From a virus, in IMG/VR virus record IMGVR_UViG_3300042894_006198, positions 32,001 to 96,000 of that record: DNA of 64,000 nt, one strand, 5' to 3'. Below the pieces are notes generated by a model. The model did not search any database. It was not told the DNA's origin and saw only the letters and a program-made list of their open reading frames with translations. A program made the translations under genes and the position numbers. This document shows positions 1 through 55,032 of the stretch, piece by piece. The number at the start of each line of letters is the position of its first letter. Within the stretch, counting starts at the first letter, position 1.

Positions 1-40
1 ATCTAGAAGTTACTAAGAAAAGTGGATTACCATTCTTTTA

Positions 41-60
41 AGATGACCTAACGGTCATCT
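41..60. other. Perfect 8-bp hairpin AGATGACC-TAAC-GGTCATCT
   Basis: Inverted repeat read directly. A second imperfect hairpin (GTGTAC..GTACAC, about 65-101) and T-tracts follow, so it may be a terminator or processing signal. Confidence 0.5.
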
Positions 61-199
61 ATTCGTGTACTAGCTTACGCTATCGCTACAGCTACGTACA
101 CTCATTTTTTTCTATTATTATTTTTTTGCCTATTTCTTTTTTGCAAAAAGGTGGATAAATGTAAAGTTAATTGCATATATCCACGATTTATAATCTTTC

Positions 200-618
200 T
201 TCCCTGCCTACTTGCGTAGAAGGTGCTCACTTCGTGTATTTTACTCAGGTAGGTTTGACTATGTCACCCCGAAACTTGTTAACAAGAAATACACCGCATA
301 CACTGTAAAGTTAATAACCGCAGTGAGTTAGTTATTAACACAGTCTCGACCCTTTTCCACTATCATCATGATCGAGCACTTGGTAAAAAAATAGTATCTT
401 TACCCCAACCTACTTTACAGTAGATCCAACTATTACGACAATAGAAACGTGATATACCTTGGGTATCCGTTTAAGCGTCCTTGTAACCATAATGGTTTTT
501 CGGATAGTCTATTGAAGATGCTGTAGAACTCAGCTAAGGCATTGACCAACTTTCATCAGTTTACCTACGTTGCGTTACTAGGTCATGCAACCGTACCCAT
601 TGTTCTATAAAACAGCCC
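200..618 (-). ncRNA. Candidate large structured non-coding RNA of unknown family
   Basis: No ORF of 60 aa or more. About ten nested helices (223-228/374-379, 234-241/287-294, 302-318/331-344, 382-387/399-404, 410-423, 430-444, 464-469/501-506, 569-573/587-591). Two hairpins have GNRA tetraloops (GCAA, GUAA) only when read on the minus strand. Confidence 0.55.
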
Positions 619-1131
619 TTAGTTTGAGACCTGAGAATGTTTTTTGAATATACCTGAGTTGAGAGTGAAAAATGTGTCTAATTCTGAGATAATCCATACA
701 CCGTAATCAGGACTTTTATATACCATATAACTTGGTACATCCCACTTTACAGTGTCTTGGACAGCAATGTAACGACCTTTATGATTAAATTTCATAAACA
801 GCACGTTTAAGTCATGCTCGTCGCTTACATCTAATAGTTGTTGTAACCAACCATTCAATACTTTGCAATTAGTTAGTAGTTGATGAAAAGGAAAGTCTCC
901 ATAGTTTTTGCATTCAATATTGAGCAATGGAAACGACACCCCAGGTATAATATCCCCCTTAAAGCTGCGTACCTGCCCTTCATGCAATACTTCTTTACGT
1001 CCCTTATTTGATCCACCAACATATGCGCCACTATTTGGAACACGAATAAAAGATTCATTATACCTATCACTTAAGTATTTTGCAATCTCTCGTTCAAAAC
1101 TACTTCCTTTAATTTTACTTGCTGATGGCAT
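619..1131 (-). CDS. Holliday junction resolvase (Hjc-like PD-(D/E)XK nuclease)
   Basis: KG-x-x-FERE N-terminus, SGA, GDII and IECK catalytic motifs; adjacent to gp46/gp47. Confidence 0.85.
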   Translation of the reverse strand: MPSASKIKGSSFEREIAKYLSDRYNESFIRVPNSGAYVGGSNKGRKEVLHEGQVRSFKGDIIPGVSFPLLNIECKNYGDFPFHQLLTNCKVLNGWLQQLLDVSDEHDLNVLFMKFNHKGRYIAVQDTVKWDVPSYMVYKSPDYGVWIISELDTFFTLNSGIFKKHSQVSN

Positions 1132-1147
1132 AATCCCTACTTATACC

Positions 1148-3313
1148 CTATGCTGCCAAACTATTTTTTTCATTTGACAACTGATAACTTGTAAACCCAC
1201 CTTCTTTGACCACTTGTAGCACGTTAGTTACACGACTTACAAGCTCATCACGATGTGAGATTAACCAAACTGATTTGTCCCTGCGTCTGCCTAATTCTTT
1301 AAATAACATGACCGCATTTTCTACACCAACACTATCTAACCCATTATCAATCATTTCATCAACAAATAATAAGTTGATACCTTGGTATAAATTTTCCCAT
1401 ACATCCCTAAAAGCAAATGATAGGGATAGTATTAATCTTGTACTTTCACCACGACTAAAGTTACCATAACTTAGCTCACGACCTAATTCAGTAATTTCTA
1501 CCGATAAATCGTTTTGAAACTTCACACGATGTGGTAAACCCATCTTATCTAAATAATGACTCAAACGTGAATTCAAATAATTTAGATTTTGGTCAATAAT
1601 TTTCTTACGCAAAAAGCTTTTCTTATTGGTCAGTAAATCTAACAAATATTCTTGGTGCTTTAACATACGTGTTAAATCATTCAATTGATCATATGACACT
1701 ACCGCAATACTATTAGTCATCATGTCATTAATTTGCTCTGCATAAGGATCAACTTCTTCAAAACGCTTTTCTAACGCTTGTTCCAACTTTTCAACAGTGC
1801 TTTGATGCTTTAAAGCTGCTTCTAAAGTACTGTATATGGTAGTAGGCTTATCACCTAACTCACCTACCTCTAACTTTACGTTGTCATATTGTTCGTTTAG
1901 TGCATCAATATCATTGTCATGAAGTGTTGTAGTTTGTTGAAAATCTTGCTGTAATTTCAATGTTTTTTCAGATAAAGAGTCAATAGTTGACTTATGATTT
2001 AACGCTTCTTCTAATGTTTTATAGTGTACAGCAGGAATTGTTGGTATATTACCAATATCTTTAAGTATAGTATTATATTCTTTTGCCTGATTTTCTGCTG
2101 TACTTAATTCAGTTTTCAGTTCAGCTAAACGATCTTCTTTGTTTTTTAGCGTAAGCTTATGTGTTTGATCATGATAATCTTGACCACATGCATAGCATTT
2201 ATGATCATGTAACTTCACTAATTCTTCGTTAATAGTTGCAATTTCTTTATTCAACCGTGTACAAGTAGCATTGCTAGCATCAAATAATTTCTTAGTATTA
2301 TCTCTTGTAAGAGTTTTATCCTTAATTTCAGAAATAATTTTTAAGTTTTTAATTTCGATATTAATATCAATATTTTTTAACGCATTCATCTGCGTAACTA
2401 TTGCTTCTTTATTTTTCTTGTAAGTTATTACCGCATCATTATATCGTTTGTTTAATTTTGCTGTTTCCGCAGTAAAATGAGTTTTGGCATTGGTTAGCTT
2501 AGTATAATTTTCATTATACTTTGATAGTGTGCGATGTGAGGCAAGTTCTTGTTGAATATCAATTTTGTATAATTCAACTAATTGATTCGTATAATTGGCA
2601 ACATCCTCATCTTTTTTGGTAATCCATAGTGCTTGTCTACGCTTAAGATTATCAATTTGTTCTTGTATTTTGGTGTTTGCGTCTTGCAACCCACGTATTT
2701 TAAATTCTTCTTGTTGAATTTGATCTTTTACTGAACGATTTAATTCTTTAATACTTTCTGCTTTTTCTGAAAGTATAGTAATACCAAGTAATTGTTCAAT
2801 AATTTCACGTTGGTCTGCTGCTTTAAGTGCTAAAAATGGTTCATTATAAGTGTTTAAGGCAACAGTATGCTTAAACATCTCAGAAGAAATTCCAACAACG
2901 GATTCAATTGCAAGCTGTGTTTCACGACTATCTCCTTGACTTTCATTTTCATCTTCTGAGAATTCTTGCTCAGCATTATCAACATAAAATTTAAGTATAT
3001 TTGGTTTACGACCACGTTCAATACGATATTCTGTGCCATTTACCTCAAAGTCTAAAGTAACTAACATATGTTTACCGTTAGTCAGGTTAATTAAATTATC
3101 TCTTTTAATATTATTAAGTACGCTACCATATAATACATAGCACAATGCTTGAATAATCGTTGATTTACCTGTGCCATTACGTGCACCATCACCGCCTAAG
3201 TCACGATTTTCACCAAGAATAAGTGTTAAATCGTTGCGAGCAAAGTTAATATACTGTGATACTGCACCAACAGATAAGAAGTTTTTAATCGATAGTTGTT
3301 TTATAATTATCAT
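1148..3313 (-). CDS. gp46: Recombination endonuclease ATPase subunit (T4 gp46 / SbcC / Rad50-like)
   Basis: IKNFLS N-terminus, Walker A NGTGKST, coiled coil with CYAC zinc hook, FSRGE signature, Walker B LFVDE, ISH motif. Confidence 0.95.
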   Translation of the reverse strand: MIIIKQLSIKNFLSVGAVSQYINFARNDLTLILGENRDLGGDGARNGTGKSTIIQALCYVLYGSVLNNIKRDNLINLTNGKHMLVTLDFEVNGTEYRIERGRKPNILKFYVDNAEQEFSEDENESQGDSRETQLAIESVVGISSEMFKHTVALNTYNEPFLALKAADQREIIEQLLGITILSEKAESIKELNRSVKDQIQQEEFKIRGLQDANTKIQEQIDNLKRRQALWITKKDEDVANYTNQLVELYKIDIQQELASHRTLSKYNENYTKLTNAKTHFTAETAKLNKRYNDAVITYKKNKEAIVTQMNALKNIDINIEIKNLKIISEIKDKTLTRDNTKKLFDASNATCTRLNKEIATINEELVKLHDHKCYACGQDYHDQTHKLTLKNKEDRLAELKTELSTAENQAKEYNTILKDIGNIPTIPAVHYKTLEEALNHKSTIDSLSEKTLKLQQDFQQTTTLHDNDIDALNEQYDNVKLEVGELGDKPTTIYSTLEAALKHQSTVEKLEQALEKRFEEVDPYAEQINDMMTNSIAVVSYDQLNDLTRMLKHQEYLLDLLTNKKSFLRKKIIDQNLNYLNSRLSHYLDKMGLPHRVKFQNDLSVEITELGRELSYGNFSRGESTRLILSLSFAFRDVWENLYQGINLLFVDEMIDNGLDSVGVENAVMLFKELGRRRDKSVWLISHRDELVSRVTNVLQVVKEGGFTSYQLSNEKNSLAA

Positions 3314-4326
3314 AGATTTTTATAGATATTGAGCAATAATTGCTTGTCAAACTTACCCTCATCAAGTTGTTCAATTTGGGATAGTACTATAGCATCAACG
3401 GATTCAAATTGCAAATTGGCTTCAAAATTATTGTCAGTTTCAATATCCACTCGTTGTGGAATCATAGTCATTTCACGCAATTTATATTCTTTCATAATTG
3501 TTTCCTTTATGCTGCTAGACTCCTCATAACTTATATCTGTATCAATAGTGATGCGTAAACACCCATTTTGAATCAGTAATGAGTCAGGGTTTTCTAAAAT
3601 TTGTGTTAAATTATATGTACGAAATTTAGGTTGATTAGGCCACGAATGATAAGTTGGTTTATCGCCCCATGCTAGTATCATCATGCCACGATCATCATCA
3701 TTTACATCACTATAATTATGCGGAAATGCGTTACCAATATATGTGATGTTTCCTTTTGTTTGGCGTTTATGAAAATGTCCTGTAAAAACATGGTCAAAAT
3801 GTTGTAGTTGATTACGATTGATTTCACCATGATCAGGCATTTCAACCATAGCATTCATATAGAATGATGGTAATTCAAAGTGACCAAACAAGTATTGTGC
3901 GTTTAACTTTTGTAATTTTTTATAATCTTCACCAATAAGCCATGGTGCAATGATGCAATCCCCATCAACAATCCAATCGTTACAAATAATAATTCGATCA
4001 AGGTGTTTTGCCCATTCCATACTCTGTACATCACGACGATCTCTATAATACAAGTCATGATTACCCACGATGAAATATATTTTTTCAAAGTTTTCATTGA
4101 GTTTTTCTAGTGCCCGTAAACTATAATTTTGTGTTAGTACATTAATTGTTGCACGATTATGGTTCCAATCACCTAGAAAAAAACATGTTTCACACCCATG
4201 TTTTTTAGCGGTTGCTATAAACCATTCGACAAATTGTAAGCAGTCTTCGTTATGTTGTATACTATTGTTCTTTAGACCAAAGTGTATATCGGTAAAAACT
4301 GCTGCTTTTTTAAATAAATTAGTCAT
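3310..4326 (-). CDS. gp47: Recombination endonuclease nuclease subunit (T4 gp47 / SbcD / Mre11-like)
   Basis: Metallophosphoesterase motifs DIHFG, GDW, GNHD, GHF, GHFH; overlaps the gp46 start. Confidence 0.95.
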   Translation of the reverse strand: MTNLFKKAAVFTDIHFGLKNNSIQHNEDCLQFVEWFIATAKKHGCETCFFLGDWNHNRATINVLTQNYSLRALEKLNENFEKIYFIVGNHDLYYRDRRDVQSMEWAKHLDRIIICNDWIVDGDCIIAPWLIGEDYKKLQKLNAQYLFGHFELPSFYMNAMVEMPDHGEINRNQLQHFDHVFTGHFHKRQTKGNITYIGNAFPHNYSDVNDDDRGMMILAWGDKPTYHSWPNQPKFRTYNLTQILENPDSLLIQNGCLRITIDTDISYEESSSIKETIMKEYKLREMTMIPQRVDIETDNNFEANLQFESVDAIVLSQIEQLDEGKFDKQLLLNIYKNL

Positions 4327-54489: not shown

Positions 54490-54639
54490 ATGAAAACAAT
54501 AACTAAAGATGATGTTTATATTGGGGTTTTTGTAGTATCAATGATATTAATTGGCATATTTTTTGACATTGGACCCGTTTGTATGACAGGATGGAACCCA
54601 ATGTTAGGTGAATGTTCTGATATCGTTAAAACTAAATAA
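54490..54639 (+). CDS. Small membrane protein (49 aa)
   Basis: Translated by hand; one TM segment followed by a C-x9-C pair. Confidence 0.5.
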   Translation: MKTITKDDVYIGVFVVSMILIGIFFDIGPVCMTGWNPMLGECSDIVKTK

Positions 54640-54642
54640 TAG

Positions 54643-54939
54643 TATTGTTGTATGAAGTTGAAGGAAAAGTGCTGCGGACGGGGCTTCGATGCCCCCTGGT
54701 CCACCAAGTATGCTAGTCCGGTAGCAATAGTGTGAGTGACTACTGTCTTGTGCGAGTCAAGACCATACCTGCTGGGCCAGACATGGTTTCGACGGGGTAA
54801 CAAGTACGGATATGGACAACACGATAGGCGATGATCGTTAATCAAGCAAAACAAATAGACGCAAACGATGAAACATTTGCTCTAGCTGCCTAAACAAAGG
54901 TAAGCGGGGGTAGGAAATACCTAGCAACAGGAAATACCA
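54643..54939 (+). ncRNA. ssrA: Circularly permuted (two-piece) tmRNA, tag ANDETFALAA
   Basis: T-arm GGGGC-TTCGAT-GCCCC and acceptor 3' strand CTGGTCC-ACCA end at 54706. After an intervening segment the 5' strand GGGCCAG (54774) pairs with it, giving G3:U70, followed by TTTCGAC. Tag reading frame GCA AAC GAT GAA ACA TTT GCT CTA GCT GCC TAA at 54861-54893. Outer ends approximate. Confidence 0.93.
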
Positions 54940-54964
54940 TTAGGGGCAATGCCCCTAATTTTTT
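54939..54964 (+). terminator. Intrinsic terminator after the tmRNA
   Basis: ATTAGGGGC-AAT-GCCCCTAAT followed by a T-run. Confidence 0.8.
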
Positions 54965-55032
54965 ATTATGTTTTGTTTTTACGTAAAGTGGTATTGTTAA
55001 ATACTTCTTTAATTTTTTACAAGGAAATATAC

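What the first reader, a model, noticed from the sequence alone, without database searches (positions are those of the whole stretch)
200..618. Candidate large structured ncRNA directly downstream of the Holliday junction resolvase
Seen: over 400 nt with no ORF in an otherwise tightly packed genome. It has a long-range helix (223-228/374-379) enclosing a multibranch domain (234-241/287-294; 302-318/331-344), several further hairpins, and GCAA/GUAA tetraloops on the minus strand (212-215, 415-418). It is co-oriented with gp47-gp46-resolvase. I could not match it to tRNA, tmRNA, RNase P or known ribozyme cores. Inference: a new large phage RNA, or a structured replication-origin/primer transcript linked to the recombination genes.
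Basis: partly seen in the sequence, partly recalled or inferred. Interest (0 to 1): 0.75.

Follow-up and report, generated by a model that had tools for sequence, protein, structure and literature searches.

The report
New large structured phage RNA gene
The gene-free stretch behind a small DNA-cutting enzyme gene of this uncultured giant lake phage encodes a real, intricately folded non-coding RNA of about 465 bases; it matches no catalogued RNA family, it differs from the large RNA that most related phages carry at the same spot, and its job is unknown.

Summary
Window 42-618 is the largest ORF-free gap in a 96%-coding window. On the minus strand (about 607 to 143) it encodes a ~465-nt structured RNA with its own hairpin-plus-U5 terminator.

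- **Homologues:** four other distinct contigs carry it (L002, L003, L004, L087).
- **Covariation:** across the five sequences 96% of cells pair. 21 of 101 pairs show compensatory double changes, against 8.7 in shuffles (0/500) and 1-3 in slid controls.
- **Strand:** G-U pairs outnumber A-C 74 to 3, which fixes the strand.
- **Known families:** Rfam 15 gives nothing. The group I model RF00028 finds all three T4 introns but nothing in this genome.

This scan has already reported a different RNA ("class B") at the same locus in other genomes. More than 120 contigs carry it. Covariance models in both directions find no similarity between class B and this window's "class A" core. A third core ("class C") sits in the same slot behind a GIY-YIG nuclease. 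Only terminator-like tail hairpins are shared.

Function is unknown. It is most likely a trans-acting folded RNA, not a cis-regulator, an origin or an mRNA. A weak likeness to the core of the T4 td group I intron is a lead only.

The parts
143..607 (-). Class-A structured RNA gene. The conserved core is 195-607, followed by a terminator. The 5' end is placed at the first conserved bases (UAGAAC, 602-607) and is not mapped.
   Evidence: Alignment A2 of five homologues: 101 pairs, 96.2% of cells paired, 21 pairs with double changes against 8.7+-2.1 in shuffles (0/500). GU/UG 74 cells against AC/CA 3. One copy in the 158-kb record.
537..591 (-). 5' hairpins. Helix 2 is GUUGC/GCAAC (587-591/569-573) with an invariant 13-nt loop. 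Helices 3 and 4 (562-566/537-541 and 555-560/545-550) carry a GAAA/GAAC loop.
   Evidence: These are invariant or change on one side only (G-U to G-C); there are no double changes.
519..535 (-). Hairpin 5. Its loop AGUUCUA (524-529 = GUUCUA) is complementary to the 5'-terminal UAGAAC (602-607), a candidate pseudoknot.
   Evidence: The stem covaries (GC to AU). The loop and 5'-end bases are invariant, so that pairing cannot be tested.
435..518 (-). Three-way junction domain. Helix 6 (508-518/435-445) encloses helix 7 (501-503/479-481, with a hairpin insert in WIN and L002 only) and helix 8 (466-471/446-452).
   Evidence: Double changes in helices 6 and 8. The 14-nt insert is present in 2 of 5 sequences.
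407..426 (-). Hairpin 9 with a UGUAAA loop.
   Evidence: Three pairs with double changes.
381..406 (-). Variable hairpin (GGUAAA...UUUACC in this window).
   Evidence: The stem sequence differs in every homologue, but a hairpin can be drawn in each. MAFFT does not align it well, so it is read by eye.
345..376 (-). Hairpin 10 (370-376/345-351) with a conserved 18-nt purine-rich loop.
Evidence: Three pairs with double changes.
302..344 (-).
   Evidence: Six pairs with double changes. L003, L004 and L087 carry a 13-19-nt insert between the 3' strands.
225..301 (-). 3' domain. Helix 13 is 296-301/225-230. Hairpin 15 is 282-286/275-279. Helix 16 is 263-270/252-259. The invariant AUAGUCAAACCUACCUGA lies at 245-262 and CGAAGUGAG at 226-234.
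   Evidence: Helix 14 has three pairs with double changes. The 18-mer is identical in all five sequences.
206..220 (-). Hairpin 17 with a GCAA tetraloop (212-215).
   Evidence: The loop differs among homologues (GCAA, GAGA, GUAA and others).
145..184 (-). Intrinsic terminator of the RNA: a hairpin at 151-184 followed by C-UUUUU (145-149).
   Evidence: Fold z = -3.3. An equivalent hairpin followed by a U-rich stretch (a U5-U7 run in L002, L004 and L087) follows the core in the other four sequences.
65..127 (+). Terminator of the convergent baseplate operon: a hairpin at 65-101 followed by T-runs at 104-127. It corresponds to the first tail hairpin of the class B and C loci.
   Evidence: Fold -27 kcal/mol, z = -7.5. 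It shares AGCGAUAGCG with a variant of the class-B tail hairpin.
42..60 (.). Palindromic hairpin AGAUGACC-GUUA-GGUCAUC, directly after the stop of the 75-aa ORF. It is the only stretch with detectable sequence similarity to the class-B loci.
   Evidence: nhmmer class B to class A, E = 9e-4. It is unique in the 64-kb window, with 0 matches expected by chance.
619..1131 (-).
   Evidence: Pfam PF24608 PDDEXK_15, E = 3e-24. In L005 the match spans profile positions 2-162 of 164, so the protein is complete and needs no further exon.
1148..4326 (-). gp46-like (1148-3313) and gp47-like (3310-4326) recombination nuclease genes, the upstream part of the same transcription direction.
   Evidence: ORFs. 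Homologues fetched.

Best explanation
Window 143-607, minus strand, is a gene for a stand-alone non-coding RNA of about 465 nt with many helices ('class A').

**Transcription (inferred).** No T4-type late promoter lies near it, and only 11 nt separate it from the nuclease stop codon. It is therefore probably transcribed as the last part of the gp47-gp46-nuclease transcript, or from a start inside that gene's end. Its own hairpin-plus-U5 terminator ends it before the terminators of the convergent baseplate operon.

**Shown.**
- The fold is under selection at the RNA level, on this strand.
- It is not coding.
- It belongs to no Rfam family.
- It occupies exactly the slot that holds a different large pseudoknotted RNA (class B) in more than 120 related jumbo-phage contigs, and a third core (class C) in another lineage.
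- The gene upstream of the slot can be either a PD-(D/E)XK or a GIY-YIG nuclease.

**Inferred.**
- The RNA acts in trans as a compact folded particle: a scaffold, a binder of a protein or small molecule, or a catalyst. It is not a cis-regulator, because no gene lies downstream of it on its strand.
- The three cores are interchangeable solutions to one task needed alongside recombination and replication functions.

What that task is remains unknown.
For: - **Homologues.** They are 66-86% identical over the roughly 410-nt aligned core.
- **Covariation.** 21 of 101 pairs have double changes. That is 0/500 shuffles and 1-3 in slid controls.
- **Strand.** G-U 74 against A-C 3.
- **Not coding.** There is no conserved ORF, and the indels are of 13-19 and 14 nt.
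- **Terminator.** It is conserved in all five sequences.
- **Rfam.** Negative.
- **Copy number.** Single copy.
- **Fixed synteny.** 101/101 loci have the nuclease upstream and 102/102 have the convergent gene downstream; 78 of the 80 loci fetched with the nuclease keep the gap.
- **Class B.** It is a real RNA with 53 of 86 covarying pairs and covariation-supported pseudoknots.
- **A and B differ.**
  - The class-B model R1 scores 106-143 bits on distant class-B members. It finds nothing in the window, even with filters off.
  - The class-A models R2 and R3 hit none of 52 class-B gaps.
- **Not plain drift.** Class-B phages differ among themselves as much as they differ from class-A phages. The nuclease is 53-60% identical within class B and 49-63% between A and B.
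- **Class C and the GIY-YIG context**.
- **Promoter.** No TATAAATA box lies within 13 kb.
Against: - There is no transcript evidence, so the ends and the independence of the RNA are inferred from sequence.
- Only five distinct class-A sequences exist (L213 is 99.8% identical to L004). Several helices are invariant and so untested, and no pseudoknot could be tested.
- 'Trans-acting particle' is reached by elimination, not by a positive test.
- Covariance models of roughly 160-175-nt subdomains could miss a small shared core, so the claim that A and B are different families is not proven.
Confidence: 0.8

Rival explanations
1. Class A is the same RNA family as class B (and C), changed beyond what sequence and subdomain covariance models can recognise. 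It would be one ancestral RNA with a small shared catalytic or binding core and lineage-specific outer helices, as with RNase P types A and B or the group I subgroups.
For: - Same slot, same strand, similar size.
- Homologous flanking genes.
- Shared tail hairpins and the CGAAGUGAG motif.
- By eye, classes B and C share a 5' pattern: hairpin, CCnUUGAG, hairpin, CGGAU.
Against: - R1, R2 and R3 find nothing across classes, although R1 still scores over 100 bits in class-B phages whose nuclease is only 53-60% identical to the rest.
- The class-B four-way junction and its two covarying pseudoknots have no counterpart in the class-A fold.
- The shared tail lies after the class-A RNA's own terminator. 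It is best read as the terminators of the neighbouring operon.
Confidence: 0.2
2. Class A derives from a T4-type (IA2) group I intron and still works as a ribozyme, for example by processing the 3' end of the nuclease transcript or by splicing itself out of an untranslated region.
For: - It shares with the T4 td intron GUUCUACA, 12 nt, then GACUAUCC (td P6', J6/7 and P7).
- It also shares a CUUG...CAAG hairpin followed by GAUAUAGUC (td P8, J8/7 and P7').
- GACUA and UAGUC are complementary.
- The 5' UAGAAC can pair with GUUCUA, as in td P6.
- R2's best alignment on td falls exactly on P8-P7'.
- T4-like phages are rich in such introns.
Against: - RF00028 finds nothing in the whole record at E <= 10, yet scores the three T4 introns at 105, 40 and 36 bits.
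- R2 on td gives only 6.3 bits, E = 0.59.
- The best local alignment to td has p of roughly 0.01-0.04, and a chained two-block alignment p of 0.04-0.15 against shuffles.
- The P3-like helix is local and covaries, and about 200 nt separate the P3'-like strand from the P8-like hairpin, so the topology is not that of group I.
- There is no exon context.
Confidence: 0.1
3. The RNA is a cofactor (guide, activator or inhibitor) of the nuclease encoded directly upstream, forming a ribonucleoprotein with it.
For: It is immediately adjacent and co-oriented in every locus with enough sequence (101/101). The layout resembles nuclease genes followed by their structured RNAs, such as TnpB and its omega RNA (from general knowledge).
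Against: - The pairing is combinatorial. Class B follows a PD-(D/E)XK gene in most phages but a GIY-YIG gene in L229. Class C follows GIY-YIG. Class A follows a PD-(D/E)XK gene 60% identical to those next to class B.
- No variable guide-like end segment was seen.
- Cultured relatives of the nuclease (SCTP-2, Phosso, PA5oct) have no such gap.
Confidence: 0.07
4. The stretch works at the DNA level or as an unstructured transcript: a replication origin with an R-loop primer, a packaging site or a recombination hotspot.
For: It lies next to the recombination genes and beside an A/T-rich tract at 104-150. T4 origins use transcripts as primers (general knowledge). An earlier first-reader note, e1-5743850, suggested this for 41-150.
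Against: - A 74 to 3 excess of G-U over A-C in pairs means selection on one RNA strand, not on DNA hairpins.
- Compensatory changes run through about 400 nt.
- The A/T tract and its hairpins read as two facing intrinsic terminators.
- No iterons were found.
Confidence: 0.04

Closest known systems
GOLLD (RF01998) and ROOL (RF03087) RNAs
   Same: These are large (about 500-800 nt), many-helix non-coding RNAs of unknown function, often carried by phages and prophages. They were found by comparative genomics and shown by cryo-EM to form RNA-only assemblies (10.1101/2024.12.08.627333, listed).
   Different: There is no sequence or structure match (Rfam E-value scans). The hosts differ, since this is a freshwater T4-like jumbo phage. 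No tRNA genes are in the window. No self-complementary loops that would suggest homo-oligomers were noticed. Oligomerisation was not tested.
The 'class B' pseudoknotted jumbo-phage RNA reported earlier by this scan on other genomes (e1-5381964, e1-5690309, e1-5791559, e1-5791569, e1-5786249)
   Same: Same locus (between the small nuclease gene and the convergent gp51/gp26-like baseplate genes), same strand, similar size, one copy per genome, and shared tail hairpins.
   Different: Covariance models and nhmmer detect no similarity between the cores in either direction. Class A has no four-way junction and no counterpart of the two class-B pseudoknots. Class A has its own terminator upstream of the tail. 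Class A is rare: five distinct sequences against more than 120 contigs.
Group I introns of T4-like phages (td, nrdB, nrdD; Rfam RF00028)
   Same: Phage-borne structured RNA of a few hundred nt lying next to a small nuclease gene. There are short colinear likenesses to the td P6'-P7 and P8-P7' segments.
   Different: It fails the RF00028 model, which detects the T4 introns. It does not interrupt a gene. The helix order differs. The likeness is not significant against shuffles.
Functionally equivalent but structurally distinct RNA classes, such as the SAM or preQ1 riboswitch classes and RNase P types A and B
   Same: Different folds are found in the same genomic context in related genomes, which suggests one task met by several RNA architectures.
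   Different: Here the task is unknown. The RNAs are far larger than riboswitch aptamers, and there is no regulated downstream gene.

Membership tests
Group I intron (Rfam RF00028) | Match to the family covariance model (P3-P8 core) at or near the gathering score | tested here: not met
   No match at E <= 10 in window 1-1500 or in the whole 158-kb record. As a positive control, the same search finds the three T4 introns at 105, 40 and 36 bits.
Group I intron (Rfam RF00028) | Interrupts a gene, so that exons on both sides join into a functional product | tested here: not met
   The upstream nuclease is complete (PF24608 profile positions 2-162 of 164 in L005). Downstream lie only terminators and a convergent gene.
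Group I intron (Rfam RF00028) | P3/P7 pseudoknot topology, with P4-P6 between the P3 5' strand and the P7 5' strand | tested here: not met
   The P3-like helix (508-518/435-445) is local and covaries. An alternative 5' partner mismatches in 3 of 5 sequences. About 200 nt lie between the P3'-like strand and the P8-like hairpin.
Group I intron (Rfam RF00028) | Guanosine-dependent self-splicing | not testable with these tools
   This needs an in vitro splicing assay.
GOLLD / ROOL / OLE / HEARO / raiA and all other Rfam 15 families | Match to the family covariance model | tested here: not met
   A cmscan of window 1-1500 at E <= 10 gave only a 17-bit MDR-NUDIX chance hit. Six related loci at E <= 1 gave none. 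Class C loci gave none.
tRNA / tmRNA | Detected by ARAGORN | tested here: not met
   The only call in the window is a tmRNA at 54615-54984.
Class-B jumbo-phage RNA (earlier findings of this scan) | Four-way-junction domain (UACCG/CGGUA closing three arms) recognisable by a covariance model | tested here: not met
   R1 finds nothing above noise in window 1-700 with filters off (best 3.7 bits). It scores 106-143 bits in divergent class-B loci.
Class-B jumbo-phage RNA (earlier findings of this scan) | Sequence similarity of the core | tested here: not met
   nhmmer from A to B and from B to A aligns only the terminal hairpin, E = 9e-4. R2 and R3 hit no class-B gap.
Class-B jumbo-phage RNA (earlier findings of this scan) | Position between the small nuclease gene and the convergent baseplate genes, on the nuclease strand | tested here: met

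The most novel reading that the evidence does not exclude
The slot behind the recombination nuclease holds interchangeable large RNAs with unrelated folds (classes A, B and C), all doing one essential job for these giant phages. Each would then be a new functional RNA class: a new ribozyme, or an RNA-only assembly used in replication, recombination or counter-defence. Class A might be a domesticated descendant of a group I intron core.
Probability: 0.12. Interest if true: 0.85.

Novelty: new variant of a known kind. Interest (0 to 1): 0.62.

Why it matters
- **New large RNA folds are rare.** Large, highly structured non-coding RNAs are uncommon, and nearly every one understood so far has turned out to be a ribozyme, a ribonucleoprotein core or an unexpected RNA assembly. 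This is a well-supported new one.
- **It comes with a natural comparison set.** Three different large RNA cores sit at one fixed genomic position in related phages, behind either of two unrelated nucleases.
  - This allows swap and complementation tests once a host-phage pair is available.
  - It also argues that the RNA, not its neighbour, carries the function.
- **It affects annotation.** Such gaps in jumbo-phage genomes should be annotated as RNA genes and not left blank.

Tried and rejected
- **Rfam.** E-value scans of the window end, six related loci and the class C loci gave nothing.
- **BLAST.** A distant blastn of 1-700 against 50,697 phage records found no match.
- **Coding.** There is no conserved ORF; the longest are 39-61 aa, at different places and on different strands.
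- **The nuclease as an intron-split gene.** Rejected, because its Pfam profile is complete.
- **Group I intron.** I recalled a likeness to td and confirmed it on the T4 sequence. RF00028 is negative with a positive control, and the shuffle tests are not significant.
- **Class A as a diverged class B.** Three covariance models and nhmmer in both directions were negative for the cores.
- **More class-A members.**
  - An 18-mer scan of IMG/VR added one member, L087, plus three chance hits.
  - A metagenome scan added only a 99.8% copy of L004.
- **A host-encoded homologue.** A genome scan with the class-B motif found only three MAG contigs that look like mis-binned phage DNA.
- **The tail hairpin as a genome-wide terminator motif.** It is unique in the window.
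- **A T4 late promoter in front of the RNA.** None within 13 kb.
- **Anti-Shine-Dalgarno and 16S-like short matches, seen by eye.** Judged to be chance and not pursued.
- **A weak R1 hit at window 16058-16176** (14 bits, E = 0.07). It lies inside coding sequence and was treated as spurious.

Full report
**Context.** The window is bases 32001-96000 of a 158-kb IMG/VR virus record.
- On the minus strand lie gp47-like (3310-4326), gp46-like (1148-3313) and a 170-aa gene (619-1131). Pfam places the last in PF24608, phage PD-(D/E)XK endonuclease.
- On the plus strand a T4_baseplate-family gene and a 75-aa ORF run into the window and stop at base 41.
- The finding is therefore a 577-nt gap between convergent genes. 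Its longest ORF is 45 aa. It is the largest ORF-free stretch of a window that is 96% covered by ORFs of 80 aa or more.

**First checks.**
- Both strands fold better than dinucleotide shuffles: z = -3.6 on the minus strand and -4.2 on the plus strand.
- Rfam 15 at E <= 10 gives only a 17-bit chance hit.
- ARAGORN finds only a tmRNA at 54615-54984.
- Distant blastn against 50,697 phage records finds nothing.

**Relatives.**
- A search with the nuclease protein fetched 80 IMG/VR loci. 78 of them keep a gap of 420-620 nt, or about 1.0-1.4 kb where an extra gene is inserted, between the nuclease stop and the convergent 75-aa gene. No ORF is conserved in it.
- The gaps fall into two sequence classes.
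  - **Class A** is the window plus L002, L003 and L004. A motif scan added L087. A metagenome scan added only a 99.8% copy of L004.
  - **Class B** has 59 distinct sequences among these loci. A motif scan found it in more than 120 contigs.

**Class A is a structured RNA.** The five sequences are 66-86% identical and align over the roughly 410-nt core.
- RNAalifold predicts 101 pairs, and 96.2% of cells are standard pairs.
- 21 pairs carry changes on both sides. Shuffles give 8.7 +- 2.1 (0/500), and partners slid by 1-3 columns give 1-3.
- G-U and U-G fill 74 cells, against 3 for A-C and C-A. The pairing is therefore selected on the minus strand, the nuclease's sense strand.
- Indels of 14 and 13-19 nt fall in hairpin tips.
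The long-range 223-228/374-379 is not conserved. Its 5' arm belongs to the covarying hairpin 370-376/345-351.
- After the core come a small hairpin with the GCAA loop (206-220) and then a hairpin at 151-184 followed by C-U5. All five sequences have an equivalent hairpin followed by a U-rich stretch, which I read as the RNA's intrinsic terminator.
- The remaining 42-140 holds two hairpins and T-runs. These read as the terminator of the convergent operon.
- The RNA is single-copy in the record.
- No TATAAATA box lies nearby, and only 11 nt separate the nuclease stop from the first conserved bases. Co-transcription with the nuclease operon is therefore the simplest reading; this is an inference.

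**Class B is also real, and different.**
- On 52 sequences RNAalifold gives 86 pairs, 53 of them with double changes.
- My covariation scan of 105 distinct sequences adds two pseudoknots with near-perfect pairing and many double changes:
  - a hairpin loop UUAUC pairs with GAUAA;
  - UCCC pairs with GGGA.
- This scan has reported class B before on other genomes as a new pseudoknotted RNA of unknown function. Look-alikes of the class-A sequence exist only in this genome.
- Tests between the classes:
  - A covariance model of the class-B four-way-junction domain (R1) finds nothing in window 1-700 even with filters off. It scores 106-143 bits in class-B loci of divergent lineages.
  - Models of the two halves of class A (R2, R3) hit only class-A loci and none of 52 class-B gaps.
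  - nhmmer aligns only the terminal hairpin.
- Protein identities show this is not plain drift. Class-B phages differ among themselves down to 54% (gp46) and 53% (nuclease). Class A differs from class B by 43-51% and 49-63%.

**The slot is modular.** A search with gp46 brought further lineages.
- In L229 the gene after gp46 is a 147-aa GIY-YIG nuclease (PF19835) in place of the PD-(D/E)XK gene, yet class B still follows it.
- In L233, L235-237, L241, L246 and L248-250 the GIY-YIG gene is followed by a third conserved core, class C.
  - It has 114 predicted pairs, 23 with double changes.
  - G-U outnumbers A-C 79 to 7.
  - There is no Rfam hit and no hit by R1-R3.
  - It shares only the two tail hairpins with class B.
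- In the window those tail hairpins lie after the RNA's own terminator, so they probably belong to the neighbouring operon.
- Cultured phages with a related nuclease (SCTP-2, Phosso, PA5oct) have no such gap.

**Group I lead.** Class A carries GUUCUACA, 12 nt, then GACUAUCC, and later a CUUG...CAAG hairpin followed by GAUAUAGUC. These resemble P6'-J6/7-P7 and P8-J8/7-P7' of the T4 td intron, which I checked on the T4 sequence. The evidence against is stronger:
- RF00028 finds all three T4 introns but nothing in this record.
- R2 on td scores 6.3 bits.
- Local and chained alignments are not clearly better than shuffles.
- The helix order differs, and there are no exons.

I keep it as a lead at about 10%.

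**Verdict.** This is a real, new, large structured RNA gene. It is one of at least three unrelated-looking cores that share one locus in a clade of uncultured freshwater T4-like jumbo phages.
- **What can be excluded:** the RNA fold, the strand bias, the convergent layout and the combinatorial pairing with two nuclease types argue against an mRNA, a DNA element, a cis-regulator and a dedicated cofactor of the neighbouring nuclease.
- **What is left, by elimination:** a trans-acting folded RNA whose biochemical role still has to be found by experiment.

Noticed in passing
L233:5045-5700, L235:4730-5400, L241, L246, L248 (plus strand of each locus): A third conserved structured core ('class C', about 350 nt) sits in the same slot, here behind a GIY-YIG nuclease gene. 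It has 114 predicted pairs, 23 with double changes, and a strong G-U excess. There is no Rfam hit. It shares only the two tail hairpins with class B.
   Followed up: partly
L229:4593-5036 and L233:4616-5044, compared with window 619-1131: The small nuclease gene after gp46 has been replaced by an unrelated one. It is PD-(D/E)XK (PF24608) in most lineages and SegE-like GIY-YIG (PF19835, 142-147 aa) in others. In L229 the class-B RNA follows the GIY-YIG gene.
   Followed up: partly
window 608-645 (minus strand) and the same place in L002, L003, L004, L087: Two tandem AGGUCU boxes (the nearer one reads AGGGCU in this window) lie 6-26 nt upstream of the conserved UAGAAC start in four of the five class-A sequences (in L002 the second box lies about 45 nt upstream). 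They are complementary to GACCU in the invariant loop of hairpin 2 (window 574-586). This could be a pseudoknot, a substrate-like helix or a protein site.
   Followed up: no
window 222-238 and 53-69: A direct repeat on the minus strand: UACACGAA-GUGAGCACC at the end of the RNA core and UACACGAA-UAGAUGACC at the tail hairpin. In class B the two halves lie side by side (CGAAGUGAG UUCU UAGAUGAAC). This hints that about 170 nt were inserted or duplicated in class A.
   Followed up: no
window 54615-54984 (+): A phage-encoded tmRNA gene with tag peptide ANDETFALAA. As I recall, such tags are typical of Betaproteobacteria, which would point to the host; I did not test this.
   Followed up: no
L215 (JBBRYT010000001.1, 461 kb, labelled Chthoniobacterales MAG), L214, L216: The class-B RNA motif occurs in three contigs filed under bacterial MAGs, one of them 461 kb long. 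These are probably jumbo-phage sequences binned into MAGs.
   Followed up: no
whole window: The T4 late-promoter box TATAAATA is strongly under-represented: 5 copies against 16 +- 3.5 expected. This fits a functional motif that is avoided elsewhere.
   Followed up: no
L245, L254, L255: In three more distant lineages (contigs of up to 524 kb) the PD-(D/E)XK gene lies inverted relative to gp46, with a 160-164-aa partner gene. The gp46-nuclease-RNA layout is absent there.
   Followed up: no
L209:1986-3001 (Sinorhizobium phage Phosso): There is a 1-kb unannotated gap between the RNase HI gene and the resolvase gene. None of R1-R3 hits it.
   Followed up: partly
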